A DNA stretch of 64,000 nucleotides, taken from IMG/VR virus record IMGVR_UViG_2897358383_000002; one strand, 5' to 3'. Numbering within the stretch: the stretch's first letter is position 1; every line of letters starts with the position of its first letter. This DNA is from a virus (lineage: Duplodnaviria; Heunggongvirae; Uroviricota; Caudoviricetes). The position numbers and the translations under genes are program-made. Positions 30,715 through 31,552 of this stretch are shown piece by piece. The notes below the pieces were generated by a model, which ran no database searches, had not been told where the DNA came from, and worked only from the letters and a program-made list of their open reading frames with translations.

Positions 30715-31524
30715 ATGCAAGAAGAGAAACAACACTACCTCTACGTTCTGGTGCCAGAGAACGGAGATACTTTTAAAATCGGCATTTCATGTGGTCCATT
30801 GGCACGGTTTAAAGGGCTACAAGTGAGTCCCGATTTTGCGCTTTCACGGGTCTATCGTGGTACGCGTTTGGCAATGGTTAATCTTGAGCGGGCTTTACAC
30901 GCAACCTTTTTCCCCTGGAATGCGCCGTGGGAGAAAAGCGTCGGTGGCGGGCATACTGAATGGTTTACACGAGAGTGTCTTGATAAGGTTTTGGCTCATA
31001 TCGAATATCTAAATGATATGTGGGGAGGGATTCTCGAGCGCATTAAGTCGAATGATTTACTTCAGCGTCCAGTAGATGCTGCTTGCTCTTTCGAAAAAGA
31101 GCTGGATGTTACTTCTATCGTGACTTTCAAAGATGACGCAGGAATGAGGGACGTGGCTTATGTCTCCATATCTGGCTATGAACCGGACGCGATCCGCGCT
31201 CAATGTGAATTGCTGAAAGCAATGTTTATGCTTCGGACTAAATATCCCTGGGATACAGGGCGGGTGTGCTTCCCTATGGAAGAGTTAACCGCCACCATTG
31301 ATTCCCAGCTTTACCACGATAATCCAGAGAAGTTTTTTAGCCTTTTAGCCGGTAATGGGCTTAACTGTGTGTCCGGGCTGGGGCGAAGTAGAATCCAACA
31401 TGCCTCGCTCTTCGGTCCCTTCTTTTACGATCGACACGGGTACTTTGAGGCTGAACTTCCGGCGCTTACGCGTGCTATAGATACTATCGATTTCGAACGA
31501 TTATTCGCTGCTCTTAGCAAATAA
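30715..31524 (+). CDS. T5orf172-domain (GIY-YIG-like) protein
   Basis: 269 aa; N-terminal YLYVLVPENGDTFKIGIS...LERALHATF...GGHTEWF matches the T5orf172 pattern; own terminator downstream. Confidence 0.55.
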   Translation: MQEEKQHYLYVLVPENGDTFKIGISCGPLARFKGLQVSPDFALSRVYRGTRLAMVNLERALHATFFPWNAPWEKSVGGGHTEWFTRECLDKVLAHIEYLNDMWGGILERIKSNDLLQRPVDAACSFEKELDVTSIVTFKDDAGMRDVAYVSISGYEPDAIRAQCELLKAMFMLRTKYPWDTGRVCFPMEELTATIDSQLYHDNPEKFFSLLAGNGLNCVSGLGRSRIQHASLFGPFFYDRHGYFEAELPALTRAIDTIDFERLFAALSK

Positions 31525-31531
31525 CACTGAT

Positions 31532-31552
31532 GCCCCTGAACGGGGCTTTTTT
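31532..31552 (+). terminator. rho-independent terminator
   Basis: gcccc-tgaac-ggggc hairpin followed by tttttt. Confidence 0.6.

What the first reader, a model, noticed from the sequence alone, without database searches (positions are those of the whole stretch)
30715..31552. Stand-alone T5orf172-domain gene inserted between the incA-like iterons and parA
A 269-aa ORF with an N-terminal T5orf172 (GIY-YIG-like) signature and its own rho-independent terminator sits between the copy-control iterons and parA, splitting what in P1 is, as recalled, a compact rep-par unit. Its C-terminal two-thirds has no motif I recognise. An independently transcribed single-gene insertion in a plasmid-maintenance locus is a plausible accessory function such as phage exclusion, nuclease or addiction.
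Basis: partly seen in the sequence, partly recalled or inferred. Interest (0 to 1): 0.6.

Follow-up and report, generated by a model that had tools for sequence, protein, structure and literature searches.

The report
Nuclease gene riding a swappable plasmid-replicon cassette
The 269-aa gene is real and encodes a T5orf172 (GIY-YIG-type) nuclease, but it is not a lone insertion: it is the non-essential last gene of an alternative plasmid-replication cassette that P1-like phage-plasmids exchange as one block, and what it does is still untested.

Summary
ORF 30715-31524 (269 aa) has an N-terminal T5orf172 domain (Pfam 26.9 bits, cut-off 20). A terminator follows at 31532-31552. The gene lies between RepA iterons and Ppar/parA.

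The "insertion" reading is only partly right. The window is a P1-like phage-plasmid carrying the "p0111" replicon. Compared with canonical (IncY) P1, the whole block 29341-31590 is replaced: origin iterons, repA, control iterons and this gene.

Three distant homologues (25-44% identity) are the only other full-length relatives in 1.84 billion representative proteins. Each sits in the same slot of another P1-like element. They accompany three RepA types, including an IncY-like one.

In complete E. coli genomes the gene accompanies about 99% of p0111 repA copies (411 vs 414 genomes). The 359 genomes with IncY-type repA are a separate set; no IncY-type record examined carries the gene.

The gene is dispensable and under relaxed constraint. 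It is disrupted or incomplete in 10 of 51 sampled cassettes, including premature stops in pO111_2 and SJ46. Its non-synonymous/synonymous variant codons are 39/34, against 4/48 for repA.

Best reading (confidence about 0.35): a homing-endonuclease-like or Odn-like competition nuclease linked to the replicon cassette. Defence and replication-accessory roles remain open.

The parts
29341..31590 (+). Exchangeable plasmid-replicon cassette (p0111 type): origin iterons, repA, control iterons, T5orf172 gene and terminator
   Evidence: blastn of the window against P1 breaks at 29340 and resumes at 31591. The L003/L004 pair has 94-99% identical flanks but different cassettes, with equivalent boundaries.
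29357..29456 (+). Five direct origin iterons with 21-22 bp spacing (incC-like)
29538..30422 (+). repA, p0111-type initiator (294 aa). It is 42% identical to P1 RepA and 45-48% to RepFIB-type initiators. An internal iteron lies at 30141-30155.
30424..30680 (.). incA-like control iterons: two direct copies (30424, 30448) and four inverted copies (30542, 30604, 30636, 30666)
30715..31524 (+). T5orf172-family gene, 269 aa (PGAP name: GIY-YIG nuclease family protein, WP_001154687.1)
30715..31029 (+). N-domain (aa 1-105), T5orf172/GIY-YIG fold. Y10, K21, G23, R31, H62 and E82-W83-F84 are invariant in 21 relatives.
31096..31521 (+). C-domain (aa 128-269), acidic (net charge -6), with a predicted winged-helix fold like the WH1 domain of iteron-plasmid initiators. 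No sequence relatives exist outside P1-like elements.
31532..31552 (+). Intrinsic terminator that closes the cassette and insulates Ppar
   Evidence: L006 has an equivalent terminator directly after its homologue.
31610..31638 (+). Ppar promoter, where P1-identical sequence begins, followed by parA at 31693-32889

Best explanation
The gene is the fourth, non-essential component of a plasmid-replicon cassette (origin iterons, repA, control iterons, nuclease gene, terminator). P1-like phage-plasmids exchange this cassette as one block.

Its product has two domains. The first is an N-terminal T5orf172/GIY-YIG nuclease that keeps the catalytic-type residues. The second is an acidic C-terminal domain with the fold of the WH1 domain of iteron-binding initiators.

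The mechanism I consider most likely has four steps:
1. The gene is expressed at a low level, probably by read-through from the RepA-controlled repA promoter across the iterons.
2. The C-domain directs the nuclease to replicon DNA, either directly or through a RepA protein.
3. The nuclease cuts the corresponding region of a co-resident P1-like element that carries a different cassette, or none of this gene.
4. The rival is then lost, or it is repaired from the nuclease-bearing copy.

This is how free-standing T5orf172 homing endonucleases and the ICP1 origin-directed nuclease Odn work.

Shown here: the anatomy, the cassette boundaries, the distribution, the relaxed selection and decay, and the predicted folds. 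Inferred: nuclease activity, the target, the transcription mode and any benefit.
For: 1. T5orf172 HMM match above cut-off.

2. Y10, K21, G23, R31, H62 and E82 are invariant across 21 relatives. In Odn the equivalent glutamate (E180) is required for cleavage (PMC8263062).

4. Two structure-comparison programs independently rank Rep WH1 domains (6h24, 1hkq, RepE, RctB) top for the rest of the model.

5. The only full-length relatives in 1.84e9 representative proteins (P0004, P0009, P0011) sit in the same slot of P1-like elements with three RepA types.

6. The cassette swaps as a unit, with the gene at its right edge, in two independent pairs. The boundaries are 67 bp and 84 bp after the stop codon.

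7. The parA and parB alleles of IncY P1 nest inside the p0111-type diversity, at ranks 16/50 and 20/50. Exchange therefore recurs at this boundary.

8. Decay is like that of homing endonuclease genes. Ten of 51 copies are disrupted or incomplete, with stops at codons 68, 112 and 228. Two further copies carry IS1 insertions. Non-synonymous/synonymous variant codons are 39/34, against 4/48 for repA and 1/51 for parA. dN/dS is about 0.3.

9. The protein diverges faster than its neighbours: 44% identity against 84% for RepA and 89% for ParA.

10. Barth et al. 2023 describe T5orf172 nuclease genes at boundaries of genetic exchange, with variable targeting domains (PMC10448857).
Against: 1. No cleavage, target or phenotype is known.

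2. The whole protein is acidic (pI 5.4-5.6) and the C-domain carries net charge -3 to -11. That is unlike typical DNA-binding homing endonucleases.

4. Distribution is not sporadic within a replicon type. The gene is present in about 99% of p0111 cassettes, so its linkage to repA could be simple hitch-hiking.

5. The IncY allele is so different over 2.4 kb that classical homing would need a long co-conversion tract.

6. P1-like genomes recombine often anyway, so the shared boundaries may only reflect the need to keep RepA with its own iterons.
Confidence: 0.35

Rival explanations
1. The gene is an anti-phage or anti-MGE defence (exclusion) gene carried as cargo. The nuclease attacks incoming foreign DNA and protects the lysogen, and it sits next to the replicon only by linkage.
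For: The gene is accessory, evolves fast and is often lost. T5orf172 relatives of similar size occur in islands beside Mrr/WYL genes and on conjugative elements. Odn shows that T5orf172 nucleases can act in inter-element conflict.
Against: No match to any of 5027 PADLOC models. There is no partner gene. The full-length family is confined to one slot of P1-like replicon cassettes and covaries with RepA type, which generic defence cargo need not do.
Confidence: 0.2
2. The protein is an accessory factor of the replicon. Through its WH1-like domain it pairs with RepA, or competes with it at iterons. In this way it modulates initiation, handcuffing or copy number, or processes replication intermediates by nicking.
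For: The gene always lies directly after the last control iteron, with the ATG 22-34 nt downstream in four lineages. It co-inherits with RepA type. Its C-domain fold resembles the dimerisation/WH1 domain of initiators and is acidic, whereas RepA has pI 9.3-9.5. Co-transcription with repA is likely.
Against: About 15-20% of natural cassettes carry nonsense or IS-disrupted copies, including the replicon type plasmid pO111_2 and the inducible phage SJ46. IncY P1 replicates and controls copy number without such a gene. Constraint is far weaker than on repA.
Confidence: 0.2
3. The protein is a domesticated, catalytically silent T5orf172 protein that acts as a DNA-binding regulator, like CapR of PLE. 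It might, for example, regulate par or phage genes.
For: CapR is a precedent for a T5orf172-derived repressor (PMC10448857). The gene sits immediately upstream of Ppar.
Against: The catalytic-type residues are invariant. The protein is acidic, with no basic DNA-binding surface evident from its composition. It has no CapR, DUF723 or DUF4397 zinc-finger domains.
Confidence: 0.1
4. The gene is a functionless passenger: a once-selfish gene now drifting towards loss and kept only by its tight linkage to repA.
For: High pseudogene frequency, and a non-synonymous/synonymous ratio more than 10-fold higher than its neighbours.
Against: dN/dS of about 0.3 is still below 1. Intact ORFs with the same two-domain layout persist across lineages that are only 25-44% identical. 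About 80% of the sampled copies are intact.
Confidence: 0.1

Closest known systems
Odn (Gp88), the origin-directed nuclease of Vibrio phage ICP1 (PMC8263062)
   Same: It is a two-domain protein: a T5orf172 nuclease joined to a domain of replication-initiator type. It acts in competition between mobile elements, and its specificity tracks the replicon type. ICP1 ORF88 is among the BFVD structural hits for the N-domain.
Free-standing T5orf172/GIY-YIG homing endonuclease genes of phages (ICP1 Gp53/121/130, T4 Seg proteins, I-TevI; PMC10448857)
   Same: They share a nuclease domain at one terminus, a linker and a variable second domain. They sit between conserved essential genes, lie at a boundary of genetic exchange, and often decay by stops or insertions.
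   Different: 87% of surveyed T5orf172 homing endonucleases carry CapR/DUF723/DUF4397 zinc-finger DNA-binding modules. This protein has none and is acidic. Within a replicon type the gene is nearly fixed rather than sporadic. Homing has not been shown.
Slx1 structure-specific endonuclease (GIY-YIG)
   Different: It is eukaryotic, with a RING domain and the partner Slx4. The resemblance is of fold only (11-18% identity).
The canonical P1 IncY plasmid replicon (oriR/incC, repA, incA)
   Same: It has the same layout of origin iterons, repA and downstream control iterons, lies in the same place between upfA and Ppar, and has the same flanks.
   Different: P1 has about 174 bp of unrelated spacer where this gene lies, with no detectable remnant of it. 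The RepA proteins are only 42% identical, and the iteron sequences differ.

Membership tests
T5orf172 domain family (Pfam PF10544; GIY-YIG clan) | HMM match above Pfam's gathering score | tested here: met
   26.9 bits against a cut-off of 20, E 6.9e-6, aa 8-85
T5orf172 domain family (Pfam PF10544; GIY-YIG clan) | Conserved core motif residues (Tyr in strand 1, K/Y-I-G, Arg, catalytic Glu in the TEWF motif) | tested here: met
   Y10, K21, G23, R31, H62, E82, W83 and F84 are invariant in a 21-sequence alignment
T5orf172 domain family (Pfam PF10544; GIY-YIG clan) | GIY-YIG alpha/beta fold | tested here: met
T5orf172 domain family (Pfam PF10544; GIY-YIG clan) | Endonuclease activity | not testable with these tools
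   Needs purified protein and an E82A control
Free-standing homing endonuclease gene | Nuclease domain plus a separate DNA-binding domain | tested here: inconclusive
   A second domain exists, but it is acidic (net -6) and has no known DNA-binding HMM. Its winged-helix fold is only predicted.
Free-standing homing endonuclease gene | Presence/absence polymorphism among close relatives at one locus | tested here: inconclusive
   The gene is present in 411 E. coli genomes, against 414 with p0111 repA. The 359 genomes with IncY-type repA are a separate set. No IncY-type record examined carries the gene. Presence is tied to the whole cassette, not to the gene alone.
Free-standing homing endonuclease gene | Located at a recombination boundary next to essential genes | tested here: met
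   Homology to the alternative allele resumes 67 bp (window/P1) and 84 bp (L003/L004) after the stop codon. The par alleles are not partitioned by cassette type.
Free-standing homing endonuclease gene | Frequent degeneration (stops, frameshifts, insertions) | tested here: met
   10 of 51 copies are disrupted or incomplete. pO111_2 has a stop at codon 111/112. IS1 insertions occur in two further copies.
Free-standing homing endonuclease gene | Cleaves the gene-less allele and is copied into it | not testable with these tools
   Requires co-infection or co-residence experiments
Odn-like origin-directed nuclease | DNA-binding domain homologous in sequence to a replication initiator (RepA_N) | tested here: not met
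   hhalign of the C-domain profile against the RepA profile gives probability 0.2%. There is no Pfam or PDB sequence match. Only a fold-level resemblance to Rep WH1 exists.
Odn-like origin-directed nuclease | Iteron-dependent cleavage of a rival origin | not testable with these tools
   A biochemical assay is needed
Known anti-phage defence systems (PADLOC-DB v2) | HMM match to a component of a described system | tested here: not met
   0 families at E <= 1

The most novel reading that the evidence does not exclude
The protein may be a RepA-guided, or iteron-guided, nuclease that makes the plasmid replicon itself a homing cassette. Its WH1-like domain would dock onto initiator-bound iterons of a rival P1-like plasmid. 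The T5orf172 domain would cut there. Repair from the resident copy would then convert the rival's oriR-repA-incA block to the resident type, or the rival would be destroyed. This would be a new basis for incompatibility and replicon turnover in phage-plasmids.
Probability: 0.15. Interest if true: 0.8.

Novelty: new variant of a known kind. Interest (0 to 1): 0.5.

Why it matters
P1-like phage-plasmids with this cassette occur in about 7.6% of complete E. coli genomes (414 of 5426). They often carry ESBL and other resistance genes. Their two replicon types (IncY and p0111) are used for typing, but why the replicons are swapped, and what the extra p0111 gene does, is unknown.

If the gene encodes a replicon-directed nuclease, it would explain cassette-level replicon exchange. 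It would add a nuclease-based layer to plasmid incompatibility and competition. It would also extend the Odn principle (a T5orf172 nuclease joined to an initiator-like domain) from a lytic vibriophage to enterobacterial phage-plasmids.

If it does nothing of the kind, the practical result still stands. The gene is a dispensable, decaying passenger of the p0111 cassette, not a separate insertion.

Tried and rejected
1. Sequence homology of the C-domain to RepA: hhalign probability 0.2%.
2. Sequence homology of the C-domain to PDB chains: best E 0.25, irrelevant.
3. Sequence homology of the C-domain to Pfam: none.
4. NCBIfam and PADLOC searches with the whole protein: no hits.
5. A remnant of the gene in the 174-bp incA-Ppar spacer of P1: tblastn and blastn found nothing better than chance. 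Deletion in P1 therefore cannot be told apart from the gene never having been there.
6. A broader family sharing the C-domain. Eighty-six other proteins with an N-terminal T5orf172 domain have tails of 110-230 aa. None is detectably related by HMM or hhalign. Their contexts are a chromosomal island, a conjugative element and a short contig, none linked to a replicon.
7. Related replicons outside P1-like elements. RepFIB-type RepA homologues (45-48% identity) are abundant in plasmids, but tblastn found the gene only in records at 90% identity or more.
8. Own promoter: no sigma-70-like site directly upstream in four lineages, and counts do not exceed shuffles.
9. An iteron-like sequence at the right junction (31573-31587) is a 12/15 match and is not conserved in L003. 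I treated it as chance (by eye).
10. The first AF2 run, with 3 sequences, was poor (pLDDT 60) and was not used for fold search.
11. The afdb50 fold library was unavailable.
12. The GTDB species-representative scan gave only one Escherichia locus. IMG/VR gave 44 loci, all of the p0111 type.

Full report
**1. Observation**

The ORF 30715-31524 (+), ATG start, 269 aa, exists as described. Pfam T5orf172 matches aa 8-85 at E 6.9e-6 and 26.9 bits, above the gathering score of 20. MUG113 and Tox-URI2 score below threshold. PHROG 2876 (unknown function) matches end to end, and phrog_681 (endonuclease) matches weakly.

A GC hairpin plus T-run lies at 31532-31552. The RepA iteron GTTGACTATRCGCGA occurs 13 times in the window against 2.4 expected. 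Five copies are direct and lie upstream of repA. One lies inside repA. Two direct and four inverted copies lie at 30424-30680. One 3-mismatch match inside parA is probably chance. The last iteron ends 34 nt before the ATG. parA starts at 31693 and is 99.7% identical to P1 ParA; ParB is 100% identical.

**2. What the surroundings show**

The window is a P1-like phage-plasmid. This region is 100% identical to E. coli plasmid p50579417_1, where the gene is annotated "GIY-YIG nuclease family protein".

Compared with canonical P1, homology stops at 29340, 16 bp before the first origin iteron. It resumes at 31591, 67 bp after the stop codon and just upstream of Ppar. Between these points P1 has its own iterons, a RepA only 42% identical, the incA iterons, and about 174 bp of unrelated spacer with no remnant of the gene.

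So the whole replicon block is exchanged, not a single gene inserted. This is the known "p0111" replicon type of P1-like elements. [quoted passage not shown]

**3. Distribution**

- PLSDB: tblastn finds the protein in 400 plasmids, all at 90% identity or more and nearly all about 90-130 kb, from Escherichia, Salmonella, Shigella and Klebsiella. 391 records cover at least 80% of the cassette.
- Complete E. coli genomes (5426): p0111 repA is in 414, this gene in 411, and IncY repA in 359.
- Related RepFIB-type initiators (45-48% identity) are in thousands of plasmids, but without this gene.

An exhaustive HMMER search of 1.84e9 representative proteins found only three other full-length relatives: P0004 (44% identity), P0009 and P0011 (25-27%). 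About 150 further proteins share only the N-terminal domain.

All three relatives lie in P1-like elements in the same slot, between repA with its iterons and parA. Their RepA proteins are of three types: p0111-like (84% to the window), IncY-like (83% to P1 RepA), and a third type (41-48% to both).

L003 and L004 have 94-99% identical flanks but different cassettes (RepA 41% identical, nuclease 28%). Their boundaries are equivalent to those of the window/P1 pair. The gene is therefore a regular member of the replicon cassette in this phage family, and E. coli IncY P1 is the variant without it.

**4. Selection and decay**

I compared 51 p0111-type cassettes (IMG/VR, PLSDB and phage records).

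| Gene | Intact | Non-synonymous / synonymous variant codons | Distinct proteins |
|---|---|---|---|
| repA | 50 of 51 | 4 / 48 | 6 |
| this gene | 41 of 51 | 39 / 34 | 26 among 50 full-length sequences |
| parA | 45 of 51 (most of the rest look like alignment or assembly artefacts) | 1 / 51 | 2 |

The ten disrupted or incomplete copies of this gene include premature stops at codon 112 (six loci, including the type plasmid pO111_2), at codon 228 (SJ46) and at codon 68. One further copy is truncated and one runs off a contig end. Two E. coli plasmids carry IS1 insertions in the gene.

Pairwise dN/dS is about 0.23-0.35, with one pair at 1.0 on few changes. For repA it is 0-0.06 and for parA 0. 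Between lineages the protein is 44% identical where RepA is 84%, ParA 89% and gp23 81%.

The gene is thus dispensable for plasmid and phage function. It is under weak purifying selection and often decays. The parA and parB alleles of IncY P1 nest within the diversity of the p0111-type elements, so recombination at the right edge of the cassette has recurred.

**5. The protein**

With a 21-sequence alignment the AF2 model reaches pLDDT 85.5. The earlier 3-sequence run, at pLDDT 60, gave the same secondary-structure order.

After a low-confidence linker, the C-domain (aa 128-269) matches the WH1 domain of iteron-plasmid initiators in two independent programs:
- Foldseek PDB top hits: 6h24, RctB 5tbf, pPS10 RepA 1hkq and RepE54. 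The best E is 0.02, with probability 0.94.

This is a fold-level lead only. There is no sequence similarity to the neighbouring RepA or any other RepA (hhalign 0.2%), to Pfam or PDB sequences, or to the tails of 86 other T5orf172 proteins. The C-domain is acidic in all four lineages (net charge -3 to -11), whereas the RepA proteins have pI 9.3-9.5.

**6. Transcription**

No sigma-70-like site lies directly upstream of the gene in any of the four lineages. No terminator lies between repA and the gene. A terminator follows the gene in the window and in L006. In all four lineages the ATG sits 22-34 nt after the last iteron.

I infer that expression is probably coupled to repA transcription and to iteron occupancy, and that the terminator shields the autoregulated par operon. 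This is inference, not a result.

**7. Mechanism**

The best-supported reading is a homing-endonuclease-like or Odn-like nuclease linked to the replicon cassette. It would act in competition between P1-like replicons. It would cut a rival allele, and the rival would then be lost or converted.

This fits the following:
- the nuclease family;
- the two-domain layout with a lineage-specific second domain;
- the position at a recurrent exchange boundary;
- co-swapping with RepA type;
- fast divergence and frequent decay.

These are features described for T5orf172 homing endonucleases and Odn (PMC10448857, PMC8263062).

Against it:
- the acidic composition;
- the lack of sequence relationship to RepA;
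- near-fixation within the p0111 type, so hitch-hiking would suffice;
- the absence of any functional data.

I give it confidence 0.35. The rivals are a defence or exclusion gene (0.2; no PADLOC hit), a RepA-interacting replication or copy-control accessory (0.2; hard to square with pseudogenes in working plasmids), a silent regulator like CapR (0.1), and a drifting passenger (0.1).

**8. Comparison and novelty**

The gene is already annotated, as a GIY-YIG nuclease family protein or as the unknown gene gp57. The replicon swap is published. What I did not find in the searched literature is the following:
- the gene holds a conserved slot across at least three RepA types;
- its relatives are confined to P1-like elements;
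- its C-domain is predicted to be Rep-WH1-like;
- it carries homing-endonuclease-like population signatures.

It passes the tests for membership of T5orf172. It fails the sequence criterion for an Odn-type protein. It meets some homing-endonuclease criteria, while others are inconclusive or untestable here. I rate it a new variant of a known kind, of moderate interest.

Noticed in passing
window 40217-40391 (-): Rfam sok antitoxin (RF01794) matches at 89.7 bits (gathering score 59). The hit lies between repL (40700-41545, -) and a 210-aa ORF (39589-40221, +). Canonical P1 has rlfA/rlfB after repL, so this looks like another variable spot, possibly a hok/sok-type module. No hok-like ORF was looked for.
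   Followed up: partly
window 30141-30155 (+); L003 9607-9621: An iteron copy with one mismatch lies inside the repA coding sequence and is conserved in the divergent L003 element. It may be an extra RepA-binding site within the gene.
   Followed up: no
L014 (NC_013370.1, pO111_2) 3001-3810; L034 (SJ46): The plasmid that gave the p0111 replicon type its name carries a nonsense codon (S111*) in this gene, which is annotated there as two ORFs. Phage SJ46 has a stop at codon 228.
   Followed up: yes
OR339795.1 (phage phi456) 40441-40782; PLSDB typing of L010-L014: phi456 annotates this gene as 'terminase small subunit', which is a misannotation. PLSDB's MOB-suite typing labels these p0111 replicons 'IncHI1B'.
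   Followed up: no
L003 versus L004 (Logan ERR2144811, SRR6505940; also GCA_007478465.1): Two P1-like elements about 80% identical to P1 in their structural genes share 94-99% identical flanks. They carry different replicon cassettes (p0111-like and IncY-like), each with its own T5orf172 homologue. Their ParB is only 67% identical to P1 ParB. The host species was not identified.
   Followed up: partly
window 43849-43934 (-) and 44003-44055 (-); 21145-22805 (-): The C4 antisense RNA with its a1/b1 targets (immI) and three tRNA genes (CAT anticodon, Thr, Asn) are present. The C4 RNA and its a1/b1 target sites match the canonical P1 annotation.
   Followed up: no
P0012 (212 aa): A distant relative of the N-domain has what looks by eye like an ArsR/MarR-type winged-helix C-terminus. 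This is another example of T5orf172 joined to a different small targeting domain. Its genomic context was not examined.
   Followed up: no
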